The notes below the pieces were generated by a model. That model saw nothing but the letters and a program-made list of their open reading frames with translations. It was not told where the DNA came from and did not search any database. A stretch of 64,000 nucleotides of DNA from Prorocentrum cordatum (Eukaryota), in NCBI GenBank assembly GCA_963575745.1, contig CAUYUJ010000265.1, forward strand, positions 1-64,000, read 5' to 3'. Shown piece after piece: positions 1,690-58,617 of this stretch; position 1 is the first letter of the stretch; every line of letters begins with the position of its first letter. The translations under genes were made by a program, and so were the position numbers.

Positions 1690-4330
1690 CTGTCTCAAGT
1701 GCCCCTTTGGGATCATCATCGGCACCCACTTTCGTATTGCAATTTACATATGATTCTGCCCCATCGTCCATCCTAAACATAAATTCGTACCAGCCCAGCC
1801 CAACCGGTATGGGCACCCGCCGTCATCTTTTGGAAAAAACTAATATGCGCGCACGCTCACCTTTCAAAATCATCTATTGTCCAGAACCCTTGGCACACAA
1901 AAGGATGATTATGTCCGCACACGCGCGTCGTCGCGGGAGCATGCCGAAATCCTTCAAAAACCCTAGGTTTAGTAAGGATGTCAGAATCAAATGCTAAAAA
2001 ATCAACATACGTGGCTTGGAGTCACGTTGTTTATCAGCACGCACGTTCTTGCAAATGCTTGTTTGCACAATGTTGCCAGACGGGCTTCGCGCGCGCATGT
2101 CGAAATCGTTCGAACGTCCTTGCGCGCGTACTGTCGCGAGAATTTTGTTTTGCGAAAATGGAACGATGTGCACGCGGGCACGTCGTCGCGCGCACACAAA
2201 ATCAATATCAAGAAAACCTTGGGCGACATGAGAATTTCAAAACCGAGTGTCGCGAAACCATATTAAAACGCATGGTTTCGCAACAACAGATTTTTTACAC
2301 ACCAAAAAACGGCGATCGCGCTCTAGCAGATTGTAAAGAAAACCTGTTCGTTGAATTATGCCAAACGGGCCTCTCGCGCCGCATGCCGAAATCATTCGAT
2401 CGCCCTTGCGAGCGTGCTGGGGGGGGGCACGAGCAGTATCAAACAAACACCATGCGGGCCACTCTCGCGCGTCGGCCGCGCACGCATGTCGAACGCCATC
2501 CAAGACCTTCATCACCGACGCGAGGAGGCCGTCATCGTCGTGATCAACATCGGCGCCGTCACTGGCCATGCCACAGTCTTTGTCGACATCGTCACCAGCA
2601 TCGGTACTACCATCATCGTGTTTACTGTTGTCGACGTTGCCATGATACCGCGCCAGTCCAACTCGCCGACTCGCACTGAAGTGCCCGATGGGATGTGCCC
2701 AGCGGTCAGCGCCACCGCGGCCGCGTCGGTCGCGCTAAGCTAGCTGGCCGCCGCGCGCAGGTGCATGCGCGGGCTGGCGCGGCCGCAGAGATGCACCAGC
2801 GAACACCAAGAACTCACGGTAATCGCCGCCGCTCGTGTTTTGCGAAACAAGTTGCGGGTGGGTGGTGGGATGATTGCGCGAGCAGTACAGTTGACAGCTG
2901 CGAGTTTCACAAGTGAATTCTCCTTTCTGGAAAAAATCTACCCCCCCAGAGTTAACGATCCCCCCTGGGGTATTGCGATTTCGTAATTATTCTGCACACT
3001 CGTCCGCCCTACCTGTGAACTCATACTATCCCAGCCAAACCGGTATCGACCCCCCCCCCGCCATCCTTTGCAAAAAATACTATGCGCGCGCACTCGCTTG
3101 TCAAAAAACATAAATTTCCAAGAATCCCTGGCAAAAAATGATACGAAGTGCACACGCGCGCGTCGTCGCGCGCGCATGCCGAAATCTTTCAAAAACCTTC
3201 GATGTCGGAAGGATTTCAAAAATCGAGTTCCCAAGAAACATATAAAACGCAACGTTTCGCAACACTGATTTTCTAAAAAACTTACACGCGCGTTCTTGCG
3301 AAATCTGAAGGAAACGATAGGTTGTTCAAGATTATCAACAAAAACCAAAAGAAAACAAATAAAGTGCAAAATGGGATTCCCTCGCGCGCAAGTCGAAACC
3401 GTTCGAACGCCATTGCGCGCGTGCCGTCGCGAGAATCGTCTGCAAAAAAAACGAAATGCACGCGCGCGCGTCGTCGCGCGCGCATGCCGAAATCCTTCAA
3501 AACCTTCTGTTTCGGAAGGATTGCAAAATCGAGTGTCCAAAAAATACACAAACACACGGTTTCGCAACACGGATTTCCAACGAAAACGTGCGCGCGCGCT
3601 CTTGCGTCGTCGTCGTCGGCGTCGCCGTCCGCCCTCCTCCCGCGTCGTCGTCATCGCCGTCGTCGTCGCCTGTCTTTCCTCGTCGTCGTCCTCGTCCTCT
3701 TTGGCGTCGTCGTTTCCGTCGTCGTTGTCGCCGTGGTCGTCCTTCCTCCTCCCTCGTCGTCGTCGTCGTCCGTCGTCGGCGTCTCGTCGTCGTCCCTCCT
3801 ATTTGTCGCCGTTGTCGTCGTCGTCGTCTTCCCTCCTCCCTCGTCGTTGTCATCGTCGGCGTCGCCGTCCTCCCTCCTTCTTCGTCGTTCAGGTAGTCGC
3901 CGTCCTCCCTCCTCCCTCGTCGTTGTCGTTGTCGCCGTCGTCGTACTCCCTCCTCCCTCGTCGTCGGCGTTGTCTTCGTTGGCGACGTCGTCGTCGTCTT
4001 CGTCGTCCTCGTCGTCGGCGTCGTCGTCGCCGTCGTCGTCGTCGGCGTCGTCATCGTCGTCGTCGTCGTCGGTGTCGTCGTCGTCGTCGACGTCGTCGTT
4101 GTCGTCGTAGTCGAAGTCGTCGGAGACGTCGTCGGTGTCGTCGTAGTCGTCGTAGGCGTCGTCGTCGTCGTCGTTGTCGCTTTCGTCGTCGGCGTCGCGG
4201 TCGTTGCCAAGTGCCATTTGGTACCCACAGTCACGGTCTTAAGAAGTCTTGCGACCAAGTTGCGGGCGGGAGGGTGGGATGTTTGCACGAGCAGTGGAGA
4301 GGACAGCTTCAAATTGAGCAAAAGATTGAT
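1690..4330. repeat. Two related dispersed repeat copies (about 1690-2930 and about 2960-4330), the second with a (GTC)n tract
   Basis: Shared CATGCCGAAATC(C/T)TTCAAAA and CAAGTTGCGGG.GGG.GGTGGGATG motifs. Distant reverse-complement similarity to module A. Confidence 0.6.
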
Positions 4331-4985: not shown

Positions 4986-6617
4986 TTCACTCCCCCCTGC
5001 CCTCCGATTCAGTGTTGGTCCCAGGCATTCGGCGGCACGGAGGCTCAGAGAACCAAAAGAAGGTCAAACCCCAAGGCCTCCGCGAGGCCTGACCCAGCTC
5101 TGAACCTGGGGGGGGTACCGTCCCCTGACAGGAACAAAAAAACTGCGCCCTGGTGGTTCTGAGTCCGCGAAGCTCTGGCCCAGCATTGCGAACGTGTTCT
5201 TATTCGGCGTTTCGACATTGGGTGGAAGAGGGGGGGGAGGGGGGGAGTCTGGCTCCGAACCACTGCTTGATGCGACTGTTTACAGCAGTGCGTCTTATGG
5301 GGGGGACTCCACCTGCTTGAAACAGGCTCCAAAAGTGGCCAATATCTACTCCATGGGAGGGGGGGAGGTGGTGCAAAGGGGCCTGCGCCGATCGGCAAAA
5401 CAGTGAAAAAGAAAACGATCACAGTCCCGCGGCTCCTGCACCGTGGGCTCTCGTCTTGCTCTGGGGCCCGCCCGCGAGACGCCCCAGGCCGAGAAACGTG
5501 GGCCGCCCCGATGTCTTCTCGGGGCCCTGGAGGTGGTCTGCGCCGGGAGGGCAGAGCGAGCGAGCGAGCGAGCGCTGAGTATGTATGGACCGCGCGCGTG
5601 CGCGGCTGCGTGAAACCGGGTCCGCGGAAAGCCCACGGGCCCTTTAGGGCGTGAGCGGCTTGGAGGGCCGCCTCTTCCAGCCCCCCTTCTTCAGCCCCCC
5701 GGCTTGGAGGGGTTTATCACTGCTCCCTATCAATACACACCCCCTCCCACAGGCGACGGGCAGCCAACCACGACCAATGAGGCCCGCGAGCAATGTGTAT
5801 CGTTTTTTGACAGGGACGGCGGGGGTGCCTGCATATTGCCTGCTTTGCGCAGGGCCCGCATACCTTCCAAAAAACCATGCAAAATGCACTTCGAGACAAA
5901 ATCTGGGTCATACGTGGGCACCCCGCGATCTCTGTGCATTGGTTTTTGACAGGGACGGCGGGGGTACTGGCAAATGGCCTGTTATGTGCAGGCCCACCAG
6001 ACGCTATGATGGCCACCCCGTCGCGATTGCGCACCGGTTTTCGACAAGGGTGGTGGGGCCGACACGTTTCACGATGTGTAATGCTGCGTGCGCAGGCGCA
6101 AAGGCAAACTCTGGGCGTGCCCCGAACGTGGCGCACCTCACGCGGCTGGAGCATGCGGCACACATGGCGCACGTGGATTACGCGGTGCATCTGACGCACC
6201 AGGCGTGCCTGGCACGCTTGGGCCACAGGGGTGCCTGGCGCAGCTGGCGCGCGTGGCGTGCCTGGCACGCCTGGCGCACCTCGCCCCAGCGTTGCGCACA
6301 TGGGGTCAGTTTGGATCCCACTAGCTGTCCATCAAAAAACTACCGCTGAATACGCTGCGGCCCAGGTAAAGGTCATGTGTTGGGAGGGCGGCCGTGAGTG
6401 AGCTAGACGGCTTGCGGGCTGGGAGGGTGTCTTGACCACTCTTCCCTATTAATACACACCCCCTCCCCCAGGCGACCAGCGGCCAACCAGGAATCATGCT
6501 CACCCCTCCCCACCATCCCTGTCAAAAAAACCATACAAAACGCACTCTGCCTCCACATGTGGAGCATGCGCGGCCAACCCGATGCGGCCCCCCCCCCACC
6601 ATCCCTGTCAAAAAAAT

Positions 6618-8668
6618 TAGCCTGACGAAAGACCCAACCATACGTAGTTGTGAATAAACGCAATTGTAGATATATTCTTCGGTGGCGCCCCCGGGCCACG
6701 AAACGAGTGAGGGGTGTGCCGAAACGGGGGGGTGGAACCGCATGCGAGCGCAGCCACTGGGGCGCTCGGTGGAGCTCCCTATGGAGCCACGAAACGTGTG
6801 AGGGGTGTGCCAGAATGGGGGGTGGAACCGCATGCGGGCGCAGCCACTGGGGCCTTCGGTGGAGCCCCTATGGGGCCACGAAACTGTGAGGGGTGTGCCA
6901 GAATGGGGGGGGAACCGCATGCGGGCGCAGCCACTGGGGCCTTCGGTGGAGCTCCCTATGGGGCCACGAAACGTGTGAGGGTGTGCCAGAATGGGGGGTG
7001 GAACCGCATGCGGGCGCAGCCACTGGGGCCTTCGGTGGAGCTCCCTATGAGGCCACGAAACGTGTGAGGGGTGTGCCAGACTGGGGGGTGGAACCGCATG
7101 CGGGCGCAGCCACTGGGGCCTTCGGTGGAGCTCCCTATGGGGCCACGAAACGTGTGAGGGGTGTGCCAGAATGGGGGGTGGAACCGCATGCGGGCGCAGC
7201 CACTGGGGCCTTCGGTGGAGCTCCCTATGGGGCCACGAATCGTGTGAGGGGTGTGCGAGAATGGGGGGTGGAACCGCATGCGGGCGCAGCCACTGGGGCC
7301 TTCGGTGGAGCTCCCTATGGGGCCACGAAACGTGTGAGGGGTGTGCCAGAATGGTGGGTGGAACCGCATGTGGGCGCAGCCACTGGGGCCTTCGGTGGAG
7401 CTCCCTATGGGGCCACGAAACGTGTGAGGGGTGTGTGTTGACTGCTGGTCTTAGTGCCAGAATGGGGGGTGGAACCGCAGCGGGCGCAGCCACTGGGGCC
7501 TTCGTGTTGAAGCTCCTATGGGGACCACGAAAAACGTCGTTGAGGGCGTTTTTTGTGCCAGAATGGGGAGTGGAACCGCATGCGGGCGCAGCCATTGGGG
7601 CCTTCGGTGGAGCTCCCTTATGGGGCCACGAAACGTGTGAGGGGTGTGCCAGAATGGGGGGTGGAACCGCATGCGGGCGCAGCCACTGGGGCCTTCGGTG
7701 GAGCTCCCTATGGGGCAACGAAACGTGTGAGGTGTGTGCCAGAATGGGGGGTGGAACCGCATGCGGGCGCAGCCACTGGGGCCTTCGGTGGAGCTCCCTA
7801 TGGGGCCACGAAACGTGTGAGGGGTTTGCCAGAATGAGGGGTGGAACCGCATGCGGGCGCAGCCACTGGGGCCTTCGGTGGAGCTCCCTATGGGGCCACG
7901 AAACGTGTGAGGGGTATGCCAGAATGGGGGGTGGAACCGCTTGCGGGCGCAGCCACTGGGGCCTTCGGTGGAGCTCCCTATGGGGCCACGAAACGTGTGA
8001 GGGGTGTGTGAGGGGGTGGCCAGAATGGTGGGTACCGGGCGCAACGATGCGGGCCAGCCACTGGGGCCTTCACGGTGGAGCTCCCTATGGGGCCACGAAA
8101 CGTGTGAGGGGTGTGCCAGAATGGGGGGTGGAACCGCATGCGGGCCAGCCACTGGGGCCTTCGGGTGGAGCTCCCTATGGGGCCACGAAACGTGTGAGGG
8201 GTGTGCCAGAATGGGGGGTGGAACCGCATGCGGGCGCAGCCACTGGGGCCTTCGGTGGAGCCCCTATGGGGCCACGAAACGTGCGAGGGGTGTGCCAGAA
8301 TGGGGGGTGGAACCGCATGCCAGCGCAGCCACTGGGGCCTTCGGTGGAGCTCCCTATGGGGCCACGAAACGTGTGAGGGGTGTGCCAGAATGGGGGGTGG
8401 AACCGCATGCGGGCGCAGCCACTGGGGCCTTCGGTGGAGCTCCCTATGGGGCCACGAAACGTGTGAGGGGTGTGCCAGAATGGGGGGTGGAACCGCATGC
8501 GGGCGCAGCCACTGGGGCCTTCGGTGGAGCTCCCTATGGGGCCACGAAACGTGTGAGGGGTGTGCCAGAATGGGTGTGGGAGGGGGAGGGGGGGGGAGGA
8601 GGAAGGAAGGCGGAACGCGGGGACCGTCTCTTCAAAACGAGGACCCAACAACACAGGTTGGTTGGGAA
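6618..8668 (+). mobile_element. Array-carrying non-autonomous element, copy 1 (leader, about 21 x 90-bp units, purine tract, hairpin end)
   Basis: Leader TAGCCTGACGAAAGACCCAACCA. End TCTCTTCAAAACGAGGACCCAACAACACAGGTTGGTTGGGAA. Same ends as the copies at 14071 and 37583. Confidence 0.8.
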
Positions 8669-10134
8669 CAGCACATGTCAAGTGCGCAGGCGCACCTGAC
8701 ACATTCTACACGTGCCCCGAACGTGGCGCACGTGGCGCGGCTAGAGTATGCGGCACACCTGGCGCACGCGGAGCACGTGGCGCATCTGGTGCACCAGGCG
8801 TGCCTGGCACGCTCGGGCCACAGGGGTGCCTGGCGCGCGTGGCGCGCCTGGCACGCGTGGCGCACCTCGCCCCAGCGTCGCGCACATGGGGACGGTTTTG
8901 GCGCCCAGTAACTGCACATCCAAAGACGACCGCTGAACATGCTCAGGCTCGGGTGTTACTTATGCGTTGGCACGGCGGGTGGGGGTGAGCTAGACGGCTT
9001 GCTATCCAGGGGGTGTCTTGATCACTGTCCCCAATTGATATACACCACCTGCACCCACCCGGCCGGCGGCCAACCCAGAACCATGACAACCACATGATGG
9101 CCACCACCCCACCATCCCTGTCAAAAAAATACAAAACGAATTCTGCCTCCACATTTGAGCATAAGCGGCCGCCCCACGACCAGTTTGCATTGGGGCGCAC
9201 GTAGAGCACGTGCCGCACCTGGCGCGCCTTGCACGCTTGGGCCTCCAGGGTCTGGCGCATCTGGAACCCGTGGCGTCTGCGGCGTTCTTTCGCGATATGC
9301 TGACTCCCGGGTGTTACGTATGTGTTGGGAAGTGAGCAAGACGGCTTGCAGGCGGGTGGGAAGCTTGACCCCTCCCCCTACCCCCTCCCCCTGGACCTGC
9401 AGGGGGAAGGCCGTGGGTCGTTAGAGAGTCCAAAACGGCCTCTGTGAGAATTCCAAATTAATTGATTTTACTATGGTTTTGGCCACGTGTTGGCATCCTG
9501 CGGGAAGGGCGCAATTGAATACGGCACCTGCTTTGATCGATCTCCTCCAAGATTGTCTCAAGATGGCCCACAACGTCCCCACCGGTACCCCAAGACGGTC
9601 CCAAGAGGCGCCGAGGAGACCCCAAGAGGCCTCCCAAGAGGCCCGCAAGATGCCTCCGAGAGATTCCCAAGAGACCCCCTAGAGGTCTCCCAGGGGCACC
9701 AAAGACGCCCCAAGAGGCCTTGGCGAGAAGGCCTAAGTCATTGATGTTACCTAAATGGTTTGGTCTCACTTTGGCCTCCTGGGGGGGCTAATTGATGAGC
9801 TCCCCTCCTTTAATCGGTCTCCTCCAAGATGGCCCCCAGATGGCCCTTGAGGCTCCCAAGAGTGCCCCAAGAGTCTCCCAAGAGGTGCCCAGAAGGCCCC
9901 CAAGAGGCCCCGAAGCTGCCCCAAAAGATGCCTCCAAGAGGCCCCAAGAGGCTCCCAAGAGACACCCAAGAGGCTCGAGAAGGCTCCTCCAAGGCACCCA
10001 AAGACGCTGCAAGAGGCCCTCAGGGCCGCCACGAGGCCCCCGAAAGTCCCCAAGAGACCTACAAGAAGCACTCAAGAAGCATCCAGAGCGACTCGGAAAA
10101 GCATCCAAGAAACCTCTGGCCTTTCTGCGCGCGC

Positions 10135-14026: not shown

Positions 14027-14070
14027 ATATATAATATATATATATATATATAATATATATATACAAACAA

Positions 14071-16595
14071 TAGCCTGACGAAGGACCCAACCATGTGCAG
14101 GTGTGAATACCGCAGTTGACACTACCAATTTCGGTGGGGCTCCCTATAGGGCCAAGAAACGTGTGAAGGGGATGGGTGTGCGGGACGCATGCGGGCGGCA
14201 GCACTGGGGCCTTCGGTGGAGCTCCCTATGGGGCCACGAAACGTGTGAGGGAGTTGACGAAATTGGTGTGGCTGACGCATGCGGGCGCGGGCACTGGGGC
14301 CTTCGGTGGAGCTCCCTATGGGACCACGAAACGTTTGAGGGGTGTGCCGAAATGGGTGTGGCTGACGCATGCGGGCGCGGGCACTGGGGCCTTCGGTGGA
14401 GCTCCCTATGGGGCCACGAAACGTGTGAGGAGTGTGACGAAATGGGTGTGGTTGACGCATGCGGGCGCGGGCACTGGGGCCTTCGGTGGAGCTCCCGATG
14501 GAACCACGAAACGTGTGAGGGGTGTGCCGAAATGGGTGTGGCTGACGCATGCGGGCGCGGGCACTGGGGCCTTCGGTGGAGCTCCCTATGGAGCCACGAA
14601 ACGGGTGAGGGGTGTGCCGAAATGGGTGTGGGTGACGCATGCGGGCGCGGGCACTGGGGCCTTCGGTGGAGCTCCCTATGGAGCCACGAAACGTGTGAGG
14701 GGTGTGCCGAAATGGGTGTGGGTGACGCATGCGGGCGCGGGCACTGGGGCCTTCGGTGGAGCTCCCCATGGAGCCACGAAACGTGTGAGGGGTGTGCCGA
14801 AATGGGTGTGGGTGACGCATGCGGGCGCGGGCACTGGGGCCTTCGGCGGAGCTCCCTATGGAGCCACGAAAAGTGTGAGGGGTGTGCCGAAATGGGTGTG
14901 GGTGACGCATGCGGGCGCGGGCACTGGGGCCTTCGGAGGAGCTCCCTATGGAGCCACGAAGCGTGTGAGGGGTGTGCCGAAAGGGGTGTGGGTGACGCAT
15001 GCGGGCGCGGGCACTGGGGCTTCACGCGACCGTTCTATGGAGCCACGAAAAAACGTGAGGGGGGGTGCAGAATTGTGTGTGGCTGGAATGACGCATGCGG
15101 GGCGCGGGCACTGGAGGGCCTTCGGTGGAGCTCCCTATGGTTTGCACCGGGGGGGAAACGGTGAGGGGTTTGGCCGAATTGGGTGTGGCTGACGCATGCG
15201 GGCGGCAGCACTGGGGCATTCGGTGGAGCTCCCTATGGGGCCACGAAACGCGTGAGGGGTGTGCAGAATTGGATGTGGCTGACGCATGCGGGCGGCAGCG
15301 GTGGGGCCTTCGGTGGAGCTCCCTATGGGGCCACGAAACGTGTGAGGGGTGTGCCGAATTGGGTGTGGCTGGCGCATGCGGGCGGCAGCACTGGGGCCTT
15401 CGGTGGAGCTCCCTATGGGGCCACGAAACGTGACGATGATTTGCCGAAATGGGTGTGGCTTACGCATGCGGGCGCGGGCACTGGGGCCTTCGGTGGAGCT
15501 CCCTATGGAGCCACGAAACGTGTGAGGGGTGTGCCGAAATGGGTGTGGCTGACGCATGCGGGAGCGGGCACTGGGGCCTTCGGTGGAGCTCCCTATGGAG
15601 CAACGAAACGTGTGAGGGGTATGCCGAAATTGGTGTGGGTGACGCATGCGGGCGCGGGCACTGGGGCCTTCGGTGGAGCTCCCTATGGAGCCACGAAACG
15701 TGTGAGGGGTGTGCCGAAATGGGTGTGGGTGACGCATGCGGCCGCGGGCACTGGGGCCTTCGGTGGGGCTCCCTATGGAGCCACGAAACGTGTGAGGGGT
15801 GTGCCGAAATGGGTGTGGGTGACGCATGCGGGCGCGGGCACTGGGGCCTTCGGTGGAGCTCCCTATGGAGCCACGAAACGTGTGAGGGGTGTGCCGAAAT
15901 GTGTGTGGGTGACGCATGCGGGCGCGGGCACTGGGGCCTTCGGTGGAGCTCCCTATGGAGCCACGAAACGTGCGAGGGGTGTGCCGAAAATGGGTGTGGG
16001 TGACGCATGCGGGGCGGGGGGGGGCACTGGGGCCTCGGTGGAGGCTCCCGAGCTCCCTTATGGAGCAACGAAAAACGTGTGAGGTGTGTGCGAATTAGGT
16101 GTGTGGGTGACGCATGCGGGGCTAGGGCACTGGGGCATTCGTTGACGATACCATAAACACGTATATCTAGTATACTTTCGTGTTCATTATAATGGGCCAC
16201 GAAAACGTGTGAGGGATGTCCGAATTGGGTGGGGTGACGCATGCGGGCGCGGGCGGCACTGGGGTTCGGTGGAGCTCTTCTATGGGAGCCACGAAAACGT
16301 CGTGGCTGGTGTGAGGGGCACATGTGCCGAATTGGGTGTGGGTGACGCATGCGGGGGCGGCCACTGGGGCCTTCGGTGGAGCTCCCTATGGAGCCACGAA
16401 ACGGTGTACTGGGTGGGTGAAGAGGAAAGGAGGAGAGGAGGGGAGGAGAGGAGGAGAGGAGAGGAGAGGAGAGGAGAGGAGAGGAGAGGAGAGGAGAGGA
16501 GAGGAGAGGAGAGGAGAGGAGAGGAGAGGAGAGGAGAGGAACGCGGGCCACCGTCTCTTCAAAACGAGGACCCAACACCACAGGATGGTTGGGGG
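14071..16595 (+). mobile_element. Array-carrying element, copy 2 (about 25 x 90-bp units, then (GAGGA)n, then hairpin end)
   Basis: Leader TAGCCTGACGAAGGACCCAACCA. End TCTCTTCAAAACGAGGACCCAACACCACAGGATGGTTGGG. Confidence 0.8.
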
Positions 16596-16676
16596 GAGAA
16601 AAAAAACAACAACAAAAAACAAAACAAAAAAAAAACAAAAAAACAAAAAAAAAAAAAAAAGGAAAAACAAAAAAAA

Positions 16677-16762
<86 letters not shown>

Positions 16763-18968
16763 ACGGCCCGCCCTCCGTCCGTGGAGCTGCTGCGAATTGC
16801 AAGCTCCGGGATCCCGGGATCGCAAGTGCTGGGGGACCCCCCGACGCAACGCCAGGCCCGCCCCACCGACACGCCTGGGAGTGCGAGAGGAGCTATCTGT
16901 GAGGACTAGGACCACGCGCGCCTCGCGCGCGCTCAGGTTCTAGCCCAGCCAAGGGCGCTGTGATGACACAAAGGTGAGGGTTTGCGGGCGACTCGCTGTC
17001 GGAAAGGACTGTGACCGTCTTGGGCCAGTTATGGGATGTTGCAGAGCTTCCATGGACTGGCGTTTGGGCTGTTAGGTACTGTCTTGGGGGGGGGGGGGGG
17101 GGCAGGTGTCTTTGGCCTCAACGGCGCCACCCAGGGTTGCCAGATAGTTGTCACCACACGCAAGTCTTGGCTTGCGGTTCGTCGGGGAGATCGCTGAACC
17201 GCCTTGGGGCATTGACTGGCTTTATGATGGAATGTCGAGGCCGTAGTTTGCTGGTCTTTGGGTGTTGTCACATTTTCTTGGCCTGTCTGGCCGAGCACGT
17301 GCGGGAGGGGCGAGGAACGACGGAGGACGAAAACCTGCCTTGAAAGAGAATACACGCGATGCCACTCCAACTGGTGGAGCACGTGCAGAAGGAACCAGGA
17401 ACGCCAGAGGAAGGAGGGCAAACTGACTTGAGATATATATATATATATATGTGTATGTATATATATATATACATATATATATATATTACACGCGCTCTGT
17501 CACGTCGGGTGGCGGAACACTGGAAGGAAGATCGAGGAAAGACGGAGGAAGGAGGGAACACAGCCTGATTATTGAGTGCATGCGCTGTCACGCCAGCTGG
17601 CGGAGCACGTACAGGACGAAGGAGGGTAGCGGAGTACGGAGAGAAAGCTGCCTTGAAACAGCCTGCACGCGCTGTCCCGCCGGCTGGCGGAGCACGCGCG
17701 AGAGGGACGAGTAAAGACAGAGACACGAGGCAGAAGGATAGAATTATGGTTTCGGAGAGGGACGAGTAAAGACAGAGACACGAGGCAGAAGGATAGAATT
17801 ATGGTTTCGGAGCCCCGTTCGGGGCCTCTTGGGGCTCCTGTGGGCTTCCCGGAGGCCATCTGGGGTCTCTTGGGGGCCTCTTTGTGCACTCTTTTGGGCC
17901 TCTGGGGGGTCTCTTGGGGCCTGTCCTGATGGGCGCCTGTTGGCGGCCTCGGGGGCCACCTGCGAGCAGAGGGCTCCAAATTCCAGCTCGGGCTCCCCTT
18001 CTTGGGCCCATCTTGGGGCCCTCTTGGGCCGTCTTTGGTGCTTCTTGGTCCTTTTGAAGGCCCTCCTGGGCCGTCCTGGGGCACTCTTGAAAGCCTCTTG
18101 GGCAATCTCGGGGCGATTTTGGAGACCTCTGGGGTCGTTTTTGAGCGTGTTGACACCAAAAATGCGCACTGAGTCAAAAAATGCAATTTCCTCAGGGGAT
18201 GGCCGATGTTTGTTTCTCGGGGTCCTCTTGCATGTCCTCTTGGTCGGTCTTGGAGCGTCGTGGACGCCTCCCTTCTGGAGCCGCCTCGACGGCGGTCTGG
18301 GGCGCCTCCTGAGCCGTCCGGAAGCATTGAGAGGCCGAAAAAGATTGAACGCGCAAATCTATCAAAACCTTAAGGGAATAATTGAAATTGGCCTTTCAAA
18401 GCACTCGTCGGGGACACCTTTGAAAATTTTGGGCCGTCTAAGATCCCTGGAGGCCGTCTTCGGGGCAGCTCGGGGCAATCTGGGGCCGTCGGGGTGGCTG
18501 TCTGATCGCTCTGGGACCTGTCTGGCGGCCCCCCAACGGCGGGCCTGGCCCCGAAGACCCCCGGAAAAAGTCGGGAACCCGCCTGGACAGAAAAGTGGTC
18601 TTGAGAGAAGTTTTGAAAAAGAGGGCTGGCCTTGGGTTTGGGGTCTCAGGGGGCCCGCCTCTTGGGGCGTCCTGGCGACGTGTTGGCAGTCCTTGGGACC
18701 GTTTCGGGCTGTGTCGGAACGCTCTTGGGGTCCTTCGAGGCGCGTGCTGGAGGCCTCCTGAGCCGTCTGAAGCCTGGAAGCTGTCTGGTGCGCTCGTTTG
18801 ACGCCCTGGGGCCGTTTCGGAACTCCGGGGGCCGCCCGGGGAGCCCCCGGGGAGAGCGGAGGCCGCTCTGTACAACCGGGCCCCCCCTCTGGTGCCCGGT
18901 CGCAGGGACATCCCTGGTAAGTAGATACGTACATTTGCCGATACGTGCACGCAGTATACGTATACACG

Positions 18969-18999
<31 letters not shown>

Positions 19000-20137
19000 G
19001 TCTATATATATATATATATATACAAGTGGCACGTGTGTGCCCAGGCTCATACAAAAAACTGAAGGGGCGTTTGAAGCAGGAGTGAAATGCAACATCGAAG
19101 TCGCACTCGAGCGCAAGTGGGGTTGACACACCTTGCGATGTGTGTACCAGGACCCCCCAGGAAGCCTCAGGAGGCCCGACTTGGATACCAGAAGAGGCTC
19201 CAGGAGGCCCCAGGATTGTGAGTGTTGTGCGTGTGTGTGTGTGATGTATGCTTTGTGTGGTGCGTGCTTTTTGTGTGTTTTAGGTGTTGTGTGTGTTATG
19301 TTTGTCTAGCGTGTGATGTGTTGGGCGTGATTTGTGTCTCTGTGTGCATGTAGTTCTGAAGCCCCAGGAGGCCCCAGGAAGCCCCAGGCGGCCTCAGGAG
19401 GCCCCAGGAGACCCCAGGAGGCTTCAGGAGGCCCCAAGAGGCTCAGGAGGCCGCAGGAGGCCCCAGGAGGCCCCAGGAGGTTTCAGGAGACCCCCAGGAG
19501 GCTCCGAGGCGGGGTCTGGGGTGCCAGAAGGTTCAGAAAGCTCCAGGAGGCCCCAGGAGGTTCCAGGATGCCCCCAGGAGGCTCCGAGGCGGGGTCTGGG
19601 GCTCGATTTTGGAAGGATTTTTCAAGCGAAACCGCCATTCCCTGAGAATCGGGGTCACAATTATTTGAATTACCATGTGTTTTTGAAGGTTTTATGTTAA
19701 ACTGTTGAAATTCCCATGTGTTTTTGGACCCTGACGTCACGATCTGCGTGAGGGGTGTCACCGATTTTCAGAGTTTCGAGGATGTCCCAAGCGAAACGCC
19801 CAGAAAAATCTCGGACGCGTGCGCATTAATCGCCTCTGAGGTCTACTCCCTCGGAGAGGTGCGTATGATAATATATGTATACATATATACATGTGTACAC
19901 ATACATCCATACCTACCTACCTACCTACCTACCTACCTACCTACCTACATACATACATGCATGCATGCATACATAAATACATACATGCATGCATGCATGC
20001 ATGCATGCATGCACATCTACATACATTTATGCATACATGCATACATGCATACATGCATACATGCGTACATGCATACATGCATACCTACCTACCTACCGAC
20101 CTACCTACCTACCTACCTACCTACCTACCTACCTACG

Positions 20138-36622: not shown

Positions 36623-37582
36623 CTGCAGCGCCGATGGCGGCAGCGGCGCCGGCGGAGTTGGCGGCGGTGACGTGGACGCCCACGGCGACATCGACGGCGG
36701 CGGCAGCGGCGGCACTGGCGTATCACAGATAACAGTTGATTCGTGTCCAAAACTGCCATGTTCTTCCATTGGTGGGCAACCCCGTACTCATGCTCCTTCT
36801 CCTCCTCATCCGAGCGAGCGTCCGCCTTCTTTTCGCTTCTCCTCCCCAACCTCCTCCTCCACCTCCTCCTCCTCCTCCCTCCTCCTCCTCCTCCTCCTCC
36901 TCCTCCTTGTCCTTCTCCGTCTCTTACTCTGCCTGTCCGCATGCGCTTCAAAATTCGCCACTGTGCCCAATGGCAGTAGAATGCCAAATACTGCCTAGTA
37001 GGTTTTCTAAACACACGAACCAAGGGGCCACCCTCCACTCTGCACGCCTTCCTGCAGGCATCCCCCCCTCTGAGCCGCCCGATGCGTCCCCAGTGTTCGC
37101 CAGGGCTCTCCAAGGTTTCCCAGACGGTCCAGGGAGGCAGCCAAGACCGCCCAGACGTCCTCACACGACCTGAAGAGGCGCCCAGAAGCCCCCCAAAAAG
37201 CCCACGAGGCGCCAAAGGGGGCCCAAGACGCTTCAAAGACACCAAGGAGAAGGCTCGAGGGGCCCCCAGGAGTGCCAACATCATTCAAAAACCTACCCCC
37301 GCCATTGCAGATATATTTGCTTGCGGCGAAGCGCCTGGGCTGCCTTGCGGAGGATGCGGAGCTCGAGCGCCGATGTAAGCAACCAGACCTCGGAAGGCTA
37401 CGATTCATCCGACGCAATCAACCCGCCACAGACGCCGACTTTGTGCTAACAGCGTGGGTGTGGAGCGTCGGCGGGGCGCGAGGCTTGAAACCCATTGTCA
37501 AGGATGGCCCTACACGACCGTAATGTGGTTAGCGTGCGGGCCTGGGGAGCCAGTCCAAGAGGCTAAAACTAGTAAAACCAAT

Positions 37583-38437
37583 TTGCCTGGCGAAAGACCC
37601 AACCATATGCAGCTGTGAATAACGCAATTGTGAGTATCGTCTTCAGTGGAGCTCCCTGTGAGGGCACGAACGGTGTGAGGGGTGTGCCGAAGTGAGCGCG
37701 GTGAGCGCATGCGAACGCAGCCACTGGGGCCTTCGGTGGAGTTCCCTATGAAGCCACGAAACGTGTAAGGGTGCGCCGAAGTGGGCACGGTGGGCGCATG
37801 CGAACGCAGCCACTGAGGCCTTCGGTGGAGCTCCCTATGCGGCCGCGAAATGTGTGAGGGGTGCGCCGAAGTGGGCGCGGTGGGCGCATGCGAACGCAGC
37901 CACTGGGGCATTCGGTGGAACTCCTTATGGGGCCACGAAACGAGTGCGGGGTGTGCCGACATGGGTGCGGTGGGCGCATGCGAACGCTGACACAGGGACC
38001 TTCGGTGGGGATCCCCATGGGGCCACGTGAGGGGTGTGCCGAAATAGGTGCGGTGGGCGCATGCGAACGCAGCCACTGTGACATTCGGTGGAGCTCCCTA
38101 CGGGGCCGCGGAATGTGTGAAGGGTGTGCCGAAATGGTCCTGGTGGGCGCATGCGAACGCAGCCACTGGGGCATTCGGTGGAACTCCCTATGGTGCCACG
38201 AAACGTGTGAGGGTTGTGCCGAAATCGGCGCGGTGGGCGCATGCGAACGGAGCCACTGGGGCCTTCGGCGGAGCTCCGTATGGGGCCGCGAAACGTGTGG
38301 GGGGTGTGCCGAAATCGGTAACTGGTGCAGAGGGCAAAGGCAGGGATGGGAGAAGGGAAAAGAGGGGCAGAGAGAAGGAAGGACGCGGGGCGCTGTCTCT
38401 TCAAAACGAGGACCCAACAATCCAGGATTGTTGAGAA
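37583..38437 (+). mobile_element. Array-carrying element, copy 3 (about 7 x 91-bp diverged units)
   Basis: Leader TTGCCTGGCGAAAGACCCAACCA. End TCTCTTCAAAACGAGGACCCAACAATCCAGGATTGTTGAGAA. Confidence 0.78.
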
Positions 38438-38772
38438 TACGCTGTTACAAATGAGTTCATTAAAATGATGTTTGCCGTTTCGGTCTTCAGAGCGACCAAG
38501 ACGTCCACAAGAGAGTCCGCCACCGAGGCCCCAAAGTGGGGCCCAAGACGGCTCCCAGGAGGCCCCCGAGAGGAATCGAGGGAGAACTCGAACTGTCACT
38601 CAGAGCCCCCAACCCCCAGCGGGCCCCCGAGACAGCCAGCAGGCCCCAAAGACGCCACCAAGAGGAAGCCCCCAAGACGCCCCTGAGAGACCCCCTCCTC
38701 CTCGCTCCCCTCATCCTTCTCCTCCTTCTCCTCCTTCTCCTCCTCCATCCCCTGTCCTTGTAGATGACTCCT

Positions 38773-40350
38773 CCCTGTCGCGCCCCCAAACGTGTCGGTA
38801 GGGCGGGCAGGGCGGTTCACCCGAGACACCCTCACGATTTGTGAAGTTGCAACAGTTTCGCGGATGGCGGGCGGGCCGCTTTCAAGCTGTCGTTCTCGCC
38901 TGAGCACCGCGCACATTCGCCTGAAAACTCTGCGACACGTTCACGGGTGGAGGGCAGGCCGCTTTCGAGGCGTTGCTCTTGCCTTACCGCGAGCACATGT
39001 GCCTGAGAAGTTCGCAGCCGCTTCAGGCGTGGACGGCGGCCTCTTTTCAAGATGTGGTTCTCGCATTTGCGCTGCGCACATTGGTCGTACAAGTTCACAG
39101 CAGCTTCACAGATGGAGGACGACTCCATTTAACAAAGCGGTTCTCACCTTAGCACCGTGCACAGTCCTCTTGAATGTTTGCAGCAGTTTCACTGGTTCGC
39201 ACGGCTGAAGTCCCAGAAATGGTGTGCTGACACGTTCTGGGATTGTCGTAACTCAACGGTCACGTTGACTCGTGATGATGAAGTCCTAGGGATGGTGTCC
39301 TGGGGCGATTTGCGATTGTCGGGACGCAACAAGCACGTTGATTCGCGACGCTGAAGACGCGGGCGATTGAAGATTGTCGGGACGCGGCACGCGACGTTGC
39401 TTCACGTTGATTGTGCTGGCACGCTTGAAGATTCTCAAGCGTATAGCCTCCAGTGGAACAGTTCCCGCAATAAGCATACTTTCTTTCAGGGACCTGTAAA
39501 TTAGAGGGAGGGTGTATTGCAACATTGCTAATGCATCTTGGGCTTGGACTGGTCCTCCTCCTTCTTCCCCCCCCTGGGCTCCTCTTCCTCCTCCTCCTCC
39601 TCCTCCTCACCCTCATCCTCATCCTCATCCTCATCCTCCTCCTCATCGTCCTTCTCCATCCCTCTCCTCATAAACAAATCATCCCTGTCGCGCGCCCCCA
39701 GACGTCTCGGCAAGGCGGGCCGAGCGTTTCGCCTGAAAGTGCCTCACCGTTTACGATCATAAAATCTGAAAATCGCAACCGTTTCACAAAATGGAGGGGG
39801 GTGACTCTCGCCTTAGTGCCGCGCGCATTCGTCTTTAAAGCTCGCCACAGCCTCAAAAATCAAGGGCAGGCCTCTTTCAAAAGGTGGCCCTCGCCTTTCT
39901 GCCGAGCACACTCGCCTTGAAAGTTTACAACAGCTTCCGGCATGGAGGGCGGTTCGCTTTTGAAATGTGGTTCGCGCACTATCACCGCGCACATTCGTCT
40001 TGAATGCTTGCAACAGCTTCGCGGGTTCATACTGTTGAAGTCCCAGGCACTGCGTTGTGGCACGAGTTGGGGTTGGTAGGACGCCAGAGTCCCATTCATT
40101 GGCTGTGTTGATGTCCAGGAAAGGTACTCCAGGACGATTTCAAACTGTCAGGACGCAACCGTCACGCTGATTCGCGGCGCTGAAGTCCCTGGAATGAGTT
40201 TTGGCTTTTTGGCTTGGTTGAGGATTATCAGACGGTTGTCTTCCAATGAGGCGCTTGCCGCAGTGGAAACAATTTCTTGCAGGGGCCTATGAAGGGGGGA
40301 CTTGGACGGAAGTTTCAGTGCAACATCGTTGGTACATCCTGGGCTTACAC
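38773..40350. repeat. Tandem pair of a diverged repeat of about 0.7 kb; inverted homolog at 13400-13925
   Basis: Both start CCCTGTCGCGC.CCCCA.ACGT.TCGG (38773, 39682). TGATTCGCG/CAGGACGCA motifs are complementary to 13550-13590. Confidence 0.6.
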
Positions 40351-55451: not shown

Positions 55452-56935
55452 ATATAGATGTGTAAATATATATCTGCATCTGTATATAGTGAGAGATAGG
55501 AAAAGATGTTCTGACCGTCGCGGTACTCATGCAGGGTCCCGAGTGGGCCCTCGTCGGGGTCCCCTGAGGCCGTTTATACGCCGTCTTGGGGTCCTCCTGG
55601 GCCGTCTTGGGGCCTGTGGGGCCGTTTTGGTCCCATGGGTAATCTTGTGGGCCTCTTGGGGCTGTTCTGGGGCGGTCTGGGGGCCCTGTTGGGCTGTCTT
55701 GGGCCCTCTGGGCCGCCTGGACCCCTCCAGGGCCCCCTCTTGGAGCGTCTTAGGGCCGTCCTTGGGGCCCTCCTGGGCGCTTAGTGGGCAATCTCGGAGC
55801 GATCCCGGAGCCGTCTCGAGCGCTCTGGATACCGAGAAACCGAGTATGCGAAACTGGCAGTGAAACCAAGAAGGATAACATATAATTTGTGCCTCCTGGG
55901 GGCCTCTTGGGAGTCGTCTTCGGGCCACCTTGGACCATCTGGGGAGCCCGTTGGGCCGTCGAGTGGCCATCTTGGGCCAATGTTGGGCCATCTTGGGCCC
56001 ATTGTGACCGTCTTGATCGGACCCTCCTGAAGCCTCCGAGGGCCCTTCGGGACCGTCTTCGGGCCACCTGGCGCCGTTTTGGGCCCTCCTGGGGCGCTCG
56101 CGATTCAGGCTCCCTGGCCGGGCCCGAAGCTGTCACGGATCAGTTCTGTATGAATTGAACCGATTATCAATGTACAGCTATAGCTGTAGGTATGTACATA
56201 TAGTACGTGTTAGCAGCATTCGTGTTCTTACAACACTAGTCTTACTCTTACTAGCATGATAAGTTCAAAGATCATGATACTAACACTAACGATACAAATT
56301 CTACGAATACAAAGACAAAACATAATCATACAAATAATGATCACAAAACTAAGACGCATAAGACCAGTAAACATTAGGATGCCAATAACCACGATGATAA
56401 GAATAAGAACGCAAAAAGCAAAAAGTACGAATAAGAAAAATAATAGTGATGCAGATAAGAACTCGAATGAGAGTACGAGTTAAAGGTACTAATAATATGG
56501 GTACGAATGACCATATCCATTGGTACTATCACTGACCTGCAGCGTACCCAACCATTTGAATCAACCGTGCAGGCGACGTTCACTGTTGTGCAAGCAACAT
56601 GGGATGCGCTAACGTGGCACGATTCACGGGACAACGACAGAAGGATGAGGAGCAAGGGCCCAGGCTTGAGGAGGACATGGGGGCGGGAAAAAAGACGCGC
56701 TGGAGGCCGAACCGTCCGCGCGGCAGCAGCAGAGGGGAGGTGGCAGGGGGCAGAAAACAACGATGACGGAAGGAGACCGAGGAGTCTTGCTTGTGTTGAT
56801 AATACGCTAAAGATGCAGCGCTGCCTGCGCCATGTCGCCGCGGCGCTCGACAAAATAATTGAACCTGATTATAGTTAGTGCAAGAAGCGAGCGAGGCCCA
56901 ACTTGCCTGCCAGTTTCCTTGCTTCCTTCCGGCAC

Positions 56936-58242
56936 TTTTCAGTGCGGGAGTTAAGGCGCGCCGCAAGGTTTGCGGGCGACCCGCGACAGCGACCCACTGG
57001 ACCCCCAGCATCCCTCGACAACGGCAACAGTTTTGCAGATCGCAGCCGTACAGGGATGGCGATGTCTAGTCTGAGTCTGGGTGGTGCCTCACTCCGCTGA
57101 ACCCCCTAGCAGGCCTCGAAGCTGGCGACAGTGTCGCAGATCGCAGCCCCACAGAGATGGCGAGGTCTAGTCTGAGTCTGCGTAGCACGCCACTCCGCTG
57201 GACCCCCCAGCAGCCCTCGAAAGTGGCGACAATTTCGCAGATCGCAGCCCCACAGAGATGGCGAGGTCTAATCTGAGTCTGCGTAGCACGTCACTCCGCT
57301 GGACCCCCCAGAAACCCTCGAAAGTGGCGACAATTTCGCAGATCGCAGCCCCACAGAGATGGCGAGGTCCAATGTGAGTCTGCGTAGCATGTCACTCCGC
57401 TGGACCCCCCAGAAGCCATCGAAAGTGGCGACAGTGTCGCAGATCGCAGCCCCGCAGAGATGGCGAGGTCTAATATGAGTCTGCATAGCATGTCACTCCG
57501 CTGGACCCCCCAGCAGCCCTCGAAAGTGGCAACAGTTTCGCAGATCGCTCCGCTTGACCCCCTAGCAGCCATCGAAAGTGGCGACAAATTCGCAGATCGC
57601 AGCCCCACAGGGATGGCGAGGTCTAGTCTACTCCATTTGACCCCCCAGCAGCAATCGAAAGTGGCAACAGTTTCGCAGATCGCAGCCCCACAGAGATTGC
57701 GAGGTCTAATCTGAGTCTGCGTAGCACGTCACTCCGCTGGACCCCCCCAGCAGCCATCGGAAGTGGCGACAGTGTCGCAGATCGCAGCCCCACAGAGATG
57801 GCGAGGTCTAATCTGAGTCTGCGTAGCAAATCACTCCGCTGGCCCCCCCAGAAGCCATCGGAAGTGGCGACGGTGTTGCAGATCGTAGCCTCACAGAGAT
57901 GGCGAGGTCTAGTCTGAGTCTGGGTGGTGCCTCACTCCGCTGGACACCCCAGAAGCCCTCGAAAGTGGCGACAATTTCGCAGATCGCAGCCCCACAGAGA
58001 TGGCGAGGTCTAATCTGAGTCTGCGTAGCACGTCACTCCGCTGGACCCCCCAGCAGCCCTCAGAAGTGGCGACAAATTCGCAGACCGCAGCCCCCCCAGG
58101 GATGGCCAGGTAGGAGGCAAGCTGGCACGCAGGAAGGAGCAAGGTGACAGGGAGGAGAGAAGGGGAGAGAGGGCGGGAGGAAAGGGGTGTGCGACCGCAG
58201 TGCTCTATTCAAAACGAGGATCCAACGCAGTAGGGCTGGGAG
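56936..58242 (+). mobile_element. Related element carrying an unrelated tandem array of about 101 bp units (GAAAGTGGCGACAATTTCGCAGATCGCAGCCCCACAGAGATGGCGAGG...)
   Basis: About 11 units at 57000-58100, then a purine tract, then CTCTATTCAAAACGAGGATCCAAC...GGCTGGGA. Left boundary approximate. Confidence 0.65.
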
Positions 58243-58517: not shown

Positions 58518-58617
58518 NNNNNNNNNNNNNNNNNNNNNNNNNNNNNNNNNNNNNNNNNNNNNNNNNNNNNNNNNNNNNNNNNNNNNNNNNNNNNNNNNNN
58601 NNNNNNNNNNNNNNNNN
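58518..58617. other. Assembly gap (100 N)
   Basis: Run of N; contiguity across it is not guaranteed. Confidence 0.99.

What the first reader, a model, noticed from the sequence alone, without database searches (positions are those of the whole stretch)
6618..8668. Left and right ends contain the same motif in direct orientation (ACGA[A]RGACCCAAC)
Seen: leader GACGAAAGACCCAACCA (6624) and trailer AACGAGGACCCAACA (8636). The pairing recurs in copy 2 (14077 / about 16563) and copy 3 (about 37589 / about 38405). At the right end CCCAAC pairs with the terminal GTTGGG. Inference: direct subterminal motifs fit nicking/termination or recombination sites of a circle-forming element rather than a TIR cut-and-paste transposon.
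Basis: partly seen in the sequence, partly recalled or inferred. Interest (0 to 1): 0.7.

Follow-up and report, generated by a model that had tools for sequence, protein, structure and literature searches.

The report
Satellite-carrying rolling-circle-type transposon ends
The repeated end motif is real and marks the two ends of a very abundant, non-coding mobile element that carries a 90-base satellite; its layout matches non-autonomous Helitron2/Helentron-type (rolling-circle) transposons, a known kind of element seen here in a dinoflagellate-like genome.

Summary
ACGAARGACCCAAC lies at 6625, 14078 and 37590. ACGAGGACCCAAC lies at 8637, 16564 and 38406. All are on the + strand, at the two ends of three homologous elements. 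A fourth element (about 56851-58240) carries an unrelated 101-bp array but has the same pair of boxes (56892 and 58215).

Each element has five parts: a 60-100-nt leader, a tandem array, a purine-rich microsatellite, a roughly 55-nt trailer ending in a hairpin, and A-rich flanks.

Read on the minus strand this matches the Helitron2/HINE plan:
- a T-run;
- a terminal inverted repeat, CCCAACCAT, that folds onto a nearby partner;
- a microsatellite;
- central repeats;
- a second inverted-repeat copy, ATGGTTGGG, about 16 nt from the other end.

Both complement the terminal repeat.

The family is very high-copy in three public runs, with sharp edges, and occurs in five metagenome contigs.

Not met or untested:
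- no hairpin at the leader end;
- no autonomous partner;
- no empty site and no circle junction;
- compensatory evidence for the hairpin is thin.

Copy 2 has a 163-nt A-run, which keeps a retroposon reading alive.

Earlier notes of this scan describe the same kind of element on other DNA of this genome. Verdict: a new member of a known kind.

The parts
6615..6692 (-). Copy 1 'leader' (the 3' flank module if the element is read on the minus strand).
   Evidence: the left edge is inferred from the alignment of copies 1-3 and from the edge of copy 3
6693..8574 (.). Copy 1 central array, about 21 units of 90 bp.
   Evidence: TRF rows 6693-7435, 6693-8574 and 7554-8574; 10 modal 90-bp units, each position at least 80% alike
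8575..8611 (.). Copy 1 purine-rich (GGA-like) microsatellite tract.
   Evidence: sequence read
8612..8668 (-). Copy 1 'trailer' (the 5' flank module on the minus strand).
   Evidence: DNA fold -6.7 kcal/mol, z -3.1
14069..14171 (-). Copy 2 leader; left box at 14078-14091, CCCAACCAT at 14086-14094. It is preceded by (TA)n and ACAAACAA.
14172..16405 (.). Copy 2 central array. TRF gives 14172-16141, 21.5 units of 90 bp. Degenerate units with an insert of other sequence follow, to about 16405.
16406..16538 (.). Copy 2 purine-rich tract, with (GAGGA)23 at 16430-16540.
16539..16598 (-). Copy 2 trailer; right box at 16564-16576, hairpin at 16571-16593, then GGGAG.
   Evidence: -5.1 kcal/mol, z -1.95
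16599..16761 (+). A-rich run of 163 nt directly behind the copy 2 trailer. It is the only long period-1 run listed in the window.
37580..37640 (-). Copy 3 leader; left box at 37590-37603, CCCAACCAT at 37598-37606.
   Evidence: contig pieces begin at 37580-37590 and depth is 0 in bins 37386-37547
37641..38315 (.). Copy 3 central array, 7.6 units of 90 bp.
38316..38379 (.). Copy 3 purine-rich tract.
38380..38437 (-). Copy 3 trailer; right box at 38406-38418, perfect 9-bp hairpin at 38415-38433, then AG and AA.
   Evidence: -6.3 kcal/mol, z -4.1; depth falls to 0 in bin 38439-38519
56851..56996 (-). Copy 4 leader-like module. Its left edge is uncertain. A box-like CGAGGCCCAAC lies at 56892-56902.
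56997..58111 (.). Copy 4 central arrays of an unrelated 101-bp unit (56997-57548, 57554-57712, 57639-58111).
58112..58240 (-). Copy 4 purine-rich tract and trailer; right box ACGAGGATCCAAC at 58214-58226. No convincing hairpin.
   Evidence: nhmmer E 1.2e-13; -1.0 kcal/mol, z 0.15

Best explanation
These are copies of a non-autonomous, satellite-carrying transposon of the Helitron-like-element-2 kind (Helitron2/Helentron; HINE or DINE-1-like).

Read on the minus strand, each copy has this order:
- a run of T;
- a terminal repeat CCCAACCAT(CC), which folds back on a nearby partner (..GTTGGG) to give a 5' hairpin;
- about 30 conserved bases;
- a (TCC)n-type microsatellite;
- a central tandem array;
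- a roughly 65-nt far flank holding a second, inverted copy of the terminal repeat (ATGGTTGGG) about 16 nt from the end;
- T-rich flank.

Inferred mechanism, not shown here: a RepHel transposase supplied in trans nicks one strand at the hairpin end and unwinds it. It stops where the far-end repeat competes with the hairpin partner for the terminal repeat. The single-stranded or circular copy is then pasted into an oligo-T site without a target-site duplication.

Shown here: the anatomy, sharp edges, high copy number, different flanks at every copy, A/T-run flanks, and no duplication at copy 3.
For: 1. Modular plan. The order is flank with hairpin, microsatellite, tandem array, then a flank of about 60-100 nt, in 4 of 4 window copies. 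Cg_HINE and DINE-1 are described in the same order: 5' subTIR plus complementary IR plus microsatellite in the left flank, central repeats, and a roughly 60-bp right flank with the 3' subTIR (PMC7492417 and PMC4067079, passages read).

2. Short asymmetric inverted repeat. Leader CCCAACCAT against the outer hairpin arm matches 8 of 9 (copy 1), 9 of 9 (copy 2) and 7 of 9 (copy 3). The leader against the reverse-complemented trailer is reached by 166 and 35 of 5000 shuffles in copies 1 and 2. Copy 3 is not significant (4918 of 5000).

3. Hairpin involving the terminal repeat. It is predicted in 7 of 8 ends folded as DNA (-4.3 to -6.7 kcal/mol, z -1.9 to -4.1). This matches the Helitron2 5' hairpin of PMC3627910.

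4. Flanks.
- 7 of 8 independent hairpin ends are followed by A, and 6 of 8 by AA (L003 and L005 are counted once).
- All 4 leader ends are preceded by AA.
- On the minus strand this means T-runs on both sides, as for the T|T insertion of these elements.

5. No direct repeat of 5 nt or more flanks copy 3, whose flanks are unique sequence (read by eye; one search finds no second copy of its flanks).

6. Mobility-like spread.
- Five metagenome contigs carry the trailer with different flanks and different cargo.
- In three runs from three studies, summed depth is 1.5e4 to 2.3e6 inside 37548-38438. It is 0 in bins 37386-37547 and 38439-38519.

7. The same pair of boxes bounds copy 4, whose array is unrelated.

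8. A Helitron2-like RepHel element has been reported in the dinoflagellate Symbiodinium microadriaticum (PMC8788227, one passage read).
Against: - No hairpin is predicted between the far-end repeat and the leader terminus: z-scores are +0.23 to +0.88 in 4 of 4 copies. A 3' palindrome is a stated feature of both Helitron2 and HINE.
- The inverted repeat is only 7-9 bp. That is at or below the stated ranges (8-15, 11-12 or 12-16 bp).
- No RepHel or other transposase domain was found in 33 of the window's 74 ORFs of 200 aa or more. No autonomous partner was found anywhere.
- No paralogous empty site was found, so T|T insertion without duplication rests on flank composition and one copy.
- Copy 2 is followed by a 163-nt A-run on the + strand. 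A retroposon tail would explain this more simply.
- The trailer module is shared by elements with different bodies, as with SINE/LINE 3' tails.
- Hairpin covariation is thin. The outer 6-bp stem does not vary in 5 of 8 sequences. All 3 double changes come from copy 4, whose alignment is doubtful.
Confidence: 0.6

Rival explanations
1. The element is a LINE-dependent retroposon (SINE- or SVA-like composite) read on the + strand. It would have a leader, a VNTR-like array, a purine tract and a 3' tail. The terminal hairpin would be recognised by a partner LINE's reverse transcriptase, followed by a poly(A) tail.
For: - A 163-nt A-run lies 5 nt behind the copy 2 trailer. It is the only long period-1 run TRF lists in the window.
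- Short A-runs follow 7 of 8 hairpin ends.
- A loose-end consensus in run X2 reads GTTGGG plus eight A.
- The trailer is shared by elements with different bodies: copy 4, L002 and L003/L005.
- Trailer-bin depth exceeds leader-bin depth in the 3 runs.
Against: - No target-site duplication at copy 3.
- The A-runs are short (2-8) in all but one copy.
- The leader side is flanked by A as well. This suggests a target preference, not a tail.
- An inverted repeat between the ends and a microsatellite-plus-array core are not retroposon features.
- No LINE with this tail was seen: nhmmer with the trailer profile finds only the 4 window trailers and the 5 metagenome loci at E below 0.01.
Confidence: 0.2
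2. The element integrates by site-specific recombination of a circle (tyrosine-recombinase type, Crypton- or DIRS-like). The 13-14-nt direct box would be the crossover core, duplicated at both junctions.
For: - A direct box lies at both ends in 4 of 4 copies.
- Earlier notes of this scan report tyrosine-recombinase retroelements in this genome (unchecked).
Against: - The box is subterminal. About 10-15 conserved nt lie outside it in the leader and about 17 nt of hairpin lie outside it in the trailer.
- The two boxes differ by an indel in every copy.
- Flanks outside the element show no box-like target.
- No recombinase gene was seen.
Confidence: 0.07
3. The element is not mobile. It would be a dispersed satellite whose array edges are conserved because blocks were spread by segmental duplication or gene conversion.
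For: - All 4 copies lie on one strand within 52 kb.
- Arrays are homogenised within each copy.
Against: - Flanks differ at every copy, and depth falls from 1e4-1e6 to 0 at the edges.
- The same ends occur with unrelated cargo.
- The same ends occur in metagenome contigs with other flanks.
Confidence: 0.05

Closest known systems
HINE / DINE-1-like non-autonomous Helentrons, including Cg_HINE of the Pacific oyster (PMC4067079 and PMC7492417; passages read)
   Same: - Non-coding.
- The order is terminal repeat plus complementary partner, microsatellite, central satellite-like tandem repeats, then a roughly 60-nt far flank with the inverted repeat copy.
- T-rich insertion sites with a few T at the edges.
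- No target duplication seen.
- Arrays differ between subfamilies while the flanks are shared.
   Different: - The inverted repeat is shorter (7-9 bp against 11-15).
- It lies about 16 nt from the far end, against 38-60 nt in mite HINEs.
- No palindrome was found behind it.
- No Helentron partner is known here.
- The host is a dinoflagellate-like protist, not an animal.
Helitron2 group (Bao and Jurka 2013, PMC3627910; abstract and passages read)
   Same: - The 5' terminal repeat lies next to the end and pairs with downstream bases to form a 5' hairpin.
- A second, subterminal inverted copy lies about 20 nt from the other end.
- There is a T at or before the 5' end.
   Different: - The 3' hairpin behind the 3' repeat is missing.
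- The direct repeat runs about 8 nt beyond the part that can pair with the terminal repeat. The published model does not explain this.
SVA-like or SINE retroposons with a LINE-type 3' stem-loop tail (recalled, no paper read)
   Same: Composite non-coding body with a VNTR-like array; conserved 3' module with a hairpin; one copy with a long A-run.
   Different: No target duplication at copy 3; A-rich sequence on both sides; inverted repeat between the ends.

Membership tests
Helitron2 (HLE2), non-autonomous | Short inverted repeat (8-15 bp) placed asymmetrically: one copy 0-2 bp from the 5' end, the other about 20-30 bp from the 3' end | tested here: met
   - CCCAACCAT directly follows the T-run at the hairpin end.
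- ATGGTTGGG lies about 16 nt from the leader terminus.
- The match is 8 of 9, 9 of 9 and 7 of 9 in copies 1-3.
- Shuffle tests: 166 and 35 of 5000 for copies 1 and 2; not significant for copy 3.
- The length is at the lower limit of the stated range.
Helitron2 (HLE2), non-autonomous | 5' hairpin formed by the 5' repeat and downstream bases | tested here: met
   Predicted in 7 of 8 ends. 85.7% of cells are paired, against at most 60% when the partner is slid. Copy 4 fails.
Helitron2 (HLE2), non-autonomous | 3' hairpin just behind the 3' repeat | tested here: not met
   No consistent stem in the last roughly 20 nt. Folds of 4 of 4 leader ends give z of +0.23 to +0.88.
Helitron2 (HLE2), non-autonomous | Insertion at T|T or after TTTT, without target duplication | tested here: inconclusive
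   Flank composition fits: 7 of 8 and 4 of 4 ends abut A on the + strand. Copy 3 has no duplication. No empty site was recovered.
Helitron2 (HLE2), non-autonomous | An autonomous RepHel-encoding element with the same termini | not testable with these tools
   No genome is held. No domain was found in 33 of the window's 74 ORFs of 200 aa or more.
HINE / DINE-1-like | Microsatellite in the flank that holds the 5' repeat and its partner, followed by central tandem repeats | tested here: met
   The purine-rich or (GAGGA)n tract lies between array and trailer in 4 of 4 window copies, and in L001, L002, L004 and L003/L005.
LINE-dependent retroposon (SINE/SVA-like) | Target-site duplication and a poly(A) or simple-repeat tail at the 3' end | tested here: inconclusive
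   Long A-run in 1 of 8 ends, short A-runs in the others. No duplication at copy 3. The flanks of copies 1 and 2 are too repetitive to judge.
Known self-cleaving ribozyme or other Rfam RNA in the unit or the ends | Match to an Rfam covariance model | tested here: not met
   0 matches at gathering score in the whole window. Only 4 matches, with E of 2 to 4.7, in 6400-8900.

The most novel reading that the evidence does not exclude
The shared box is more than a by-product of the hairpin. On the minus strand, GTTGG-N(1-2)-YCYT(T)CG runs about 8 nt beyond the bases that can pair with the terminal repeat. It is kept at both ends, and in two subfamilies with unrelated cargo.

It could be the binding or nick-guiding site of the transposase for both start and stop, in a Helitron-like lineage that has lost the usual 3' hairpin. 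Such a lineage would end replication only through competition between the two copies for the terminal repeat. This would give a directly testable start-and-stop logic for these little-studied elements.
Probability: 0.25. Interest if true: 0.5.

Novelty: new member of a known kind. Interest (0 to 1): 0.3.

Why it matters
It explains how short satellite arrays are spread through a very repeat-rich, dinoflagellate-like genome: they ride in a mobile element with defined ends. It also gives annotators two short end modules with which to find and delimit the family. The end logic (one terminal repeat with two competing partners) is what the published Helitron2 model predicts, so this high-copy family could be used to test that model. 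My searches found no paper describing satellite-carrying elements of this kind in dinoflagellates. One paper mentions a Helitron2-like RepHel in Symbiodinium.

Tried and rejected
- **Leader and trailer as worn copies of the 90-bp unit.** Rejected. The best local scores are reached by 112 to 1991 of 2000 shuffles. The only hit is the array start, CTTCGGTG.
- **Ribozyme or other known RNA.** No Rfam match.
- **Coding partner in the window.** 33 of 74 ORFs of 200 aa or more were scanned; I left out those lying in arrays or simple repeats. Only two sub-threshold Pfam hits appeared.
- **Whole genome.** None is held.
- **Viral-contig scans.** 0 loci with either the trailer or the leader pattern.
- **Genome-contig scans.** The leader pattern gave 0 loci. 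The 19-nt trailer pattern gave 2 loci in Saprospiraceae MAGs. On reading they are AT-rich bacterial sequence and chance matches.
- **More trailers in the window.** None at E below 0.01.
- **Empty sites.**
  - Chimeric flanks of copies 1-3 find no uninterrupted paralogue.
  - The right flank of copy 1 matches paralogues of its host repeat only weakly and out of register (best p 0.019).
- **Sequencing runs.** No RNA holder is listed. The three runs hold only 0.06-0.07 of the sampled words.
- **Circle or head-to-tail junctions.** None joins trailer to leader among the 15 joints shown, but 1034 more were not shown. This says nothing either way.
- **The site at 45340.** No other element feature lies around it.
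- **A possible far end of the L005 element (GAAGACGTCCAAC).** A pattern search in the window was uninformative.
- **The 236-aa ORF beside the hairpin end in L003/L005.** No Pfam family and no Atlas lead.
Full report
**What is there**

The window is eukaryotic, non-coding as far as tested, and very repeat-rich. No genome is held for it. Earlier notes of this scan call the genome a dinoflagellate, and one names Prorocentrum cordatum. I did not check either.

The interval 6618-8668 is one copy of an element with five modules:
- a conserved leader (about 6615-6692);
- an array of about 21 units of 90 bp (6693-8574);
- a purine-rich tract (8575-8611);
- a conserved trailer (8612-8666) that ends in a hairpin;
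- two A.

Copy 2 (about 14069-16598) and copy 3 (37580-38437) have the same plan. A fourth element (about 56851-58240) has an unrelated 101-bp array but the same purine tract and trailer. All four lie on the + strand.

**The observation**

- The left box ACGAARGACCCAAC occurs 3 times (6625, 14078, 37590), against 0.04 expected.
- The right box ACGARGACCCAAC occurs 4 times (8637, 16564, 38406, 58214), against 0.23 expected.

Because copies 1-3 are homologous, the recurrence is not independent evidence. Within a single copy the leader-trailer match is only modestly unusual: 574, 34 and 267 of 5000 shuffles.

Independent support comes from copy 4. The relaxed box CGARG-N(0-2)-CCAAC has 6 hits in 128 kb of both strands, against a shuffle mean of 0.93. 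Five of them are element ends, including one about 100 bp upstream of the copy-4 array (56892). The sixth (45340) has no other element feature.

In the leader the longest invariant block among the 3 copies is GACCCAACCAT. In the trailer the box is no better conserved than the adjoining TCTCTTCAAA.

**Is it a real family with real edges?**

Yes. A 23-nt trailer pattern found 5 metagenome contigs.
- L001 and L004 carry the same kind of array.
- L002 carries another repeat.
- L003/L005 (one locus, two contigs) carry unique sequence with a 236-aa ORF on the opposite strand.
- All have the purine tract, the trailer, a hairpin and then A-rich sequence.

I laid contigs of three coded runs from three studies on 36900-39300.
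- Summed depths were 1.5e4 to 2.3e6 inside 37548-38438.
- Depth was 0 in bins 37386-37547 and 38439-38519.
- Pieces begin at 37580-37590.
- Loose ends behind 38419/38420 read ..GGATGGTGGG AAA.. and ..GGTTGGTTGGG plus eight A.

These depths are sums over contigs and are not copy numbers. They still show a very abundant family with sharp limits at the ends proposed.

**What it is**

On the + strand the element looks like leader, array, trailer and A-run, which suggested a retroposon. Read on the minus strand it follows another published plan.

Passages read in PMC4067079 and PMC7492417 describe HINE/DINE-1 and Cg_HINE elements as follows:
- a 5' subterminal inverted repeat with a nearby complementary partner;
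- a microsatellite;
- central tandem repeats;
- a roughly 60-bp right flank with the 3' inverted repeat and a palindrome;
- insertion in T-rich sites, a few T at the edges, and no target duplication.

PMC3627910 defines Helitron2 as follows:
- a 5' repeat 0-2 bp from the end that forms a 5' hairpin;
- a 3' repeat 20-30 bp from the other end, followed by a 3' hairpin;
- the suggestion that pairing of the two repeats opens the 5' hairpin and sets the end of replication.

On the minus strand the element starts T(n)-CCCAACCATCC-TGT-GGTGTTGGG-TCCTCGTTTTGAAGAGAC. It continues with (TCC)n-like repeats and the array. It ends ..ATGGTTGGGTCTTTCGTCAGGCTAA followed by T-rich flank.
- The terminal CCCAACCAT is matched in inverted orientation by ATGGTTGGG near the other end: 8 of 9, 9 of 9 and 7 of 9 in copies 1-3.
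- The shuffle counts are 166 and 35 of 5000 in copies 1 and 2. Copy 3 is not significant.
- The inner hairpin arm and the far-end repeat both complement the terminal repeat.

I reached this reading from the anatomy and the papers. Only then did I see that earlier notes of this scan describe Helitron2/HINE-like satellite carriers on other pieces of the same genome. Those notes are unchecked and count as leads only.

**Hairpin**

Folded as DNA, 7 of 8 hairpin ends give a stem-loop (-4.3 to -6.7 kcal/mol; z -1.9 to -4.1). Copy 4 does not.

Pair counts on an 8-sequence alignment:
- 85.7% of cells pair, against at most 60% when the partner is slid.
- 2-3 of 500 shuffles reach the observed values.
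- The outer stem CCCAAC/GTTGGG never varies in 5 of the 8 sequences.
- All 3 double changes come from copy 4, whose alignment is doubtful.

The inner stem differs between copies:
- AAC/GTT in copy 1;
- TCC/GGA in L001;
- AATCC/GGATT in copy 3;
- CC/GG or ACCA/TGGT in the others.

This suggests the stem is maintained, but with shifting register. Compensatory evidence exists but is thin.

**Points against membership**

- No hairpin is predicted behind the far-end repeat (z +0.23 to +0.88 in 4 of 4).
- The inverted repeat is short.
- No RepHel was found, and no partner could be sought for lack of a genome.
- No empty site was recovered.

HELIANO's authors note variants with the stem-loop at only one end, which they call 'HLE2-reverse' (PMC11417382, passages read). 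So one missing hairpin is not fatal, but it is a defining feature tested and not met for Helitron2 as first defined. I therefore file the element as Helitron2/HINE-like in plan. I do not claim proven membership.

**The A-run of copy 2**

The 163-nt A-rich run starts 5 nt behind the copy 2 trailer. It is the only long period-1 run TRF lists in the window. Chance adjacency is unlikely, so it needs a cause. There are three candidates:
- a retroposon tail;
- an expanded version of the T-string at the element edge;
- the tail of a separate, fully truncated retroelement. Earlier notes say LINEs in this genome target such hairpins (unchecked).

Against the retroposon reading:
- The A-runs are 2-8 nt in the other ends.
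- The leader side is also flanked by AA in 4 of 4 copies.
- Copy 3, with unique flanks, has no duplication.

I give this rival 0.2.

**Other rivals**

A recombination core (tyrosine-recombinase type) is unlikely. The boxes are subterminal, with conserved element sequence outside them on both sides. A non-mobile satellite is unlikely given the different flanks, the sharp depth edges and the shared ends with unrelated cargo.

**What is unexplained**

The direct repeat runs about 8 nt beyond the part that can pair with the terminal repeat (GTTGGG-TCYT(T)CGT). A version of it (GTTGG..CCTCG) is kept at both ends of copy 4. The published model does not predict this. It may be a protein site used at both ends.

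**Verdict**

The element is a new member of a known kind, already met by this scan elsewhere in this genome. Interest is modest.

Noticed in passing
window 6036-6617 and 8670-9130; motif copies at 3058, 3119, 5804(-), 5943(-), 6038(-), 6510, 6596, 9109, 22382(-), 23185(-), 29551, 33841(-): Copy 1 sits directly behind the A-run of another dispersed repeat. That repeat's motif CC(A/G)CC(A/G)TCCCTGTCAAAAA occurs 12 times in the window on both strands. Its core CCCCACCATCCCTGT resembles the element's own terminal CCCAACCATCCTGT. This may be chance, or it may point to a related family or a preferred target.
   Followed up: partly
L005 1104-1814 (-), same locus as L003: An intact 236-aa ORF starts about 190 nt from the element's microsatellite, on the strand on which the element reads as Helitron2-like.
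- It has 12 relatives of 143-275 aa in metagenome proteins (36-100% identity; the 100% hit is probably the same protein).
- It has no Pfam family and no Atlas lead.
- It could be cargo or a neighbouring gene; this is unresolved.
   Followed up: partly
window arrays 6693-8574, 14172-16141, 37641-38315; L004; L001: The central repeats share a core of about 45 nt (..CACTGGGRCCTTCGGTGGAGCTCCCTATGGGGCCACGAAACG..). The rest of the unit and its length (77, 89, 90, 114-120 bp) differ between copies. Each array is homogeneous within itself.
   Followed up: partly
window 38498-38660, 9560-9970, 17821-17922, 19361-19585; L005 415-660: Runs of an 10-11-bp CCCAAGAGGCC-like repeat lie near several element copies. 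By eye, the stretch right of copy 3 resembles L005 415-480. It is probably another dispersed family.
   Followed up: no
L001 913-1018 (-): A second, inverted partial copy. Here an array unit runs straight into ..ACGTTCCAACGCCACAGGATGGTTTC, without the purine tract or the TCTCTTCAAAACGAGGA block (nhmmer E 0.015).
   Followed up: no
window 58518-58617: A run of 100 N (an assembly gap) lies about 280 bp right of copy 4.
   Followed up: no
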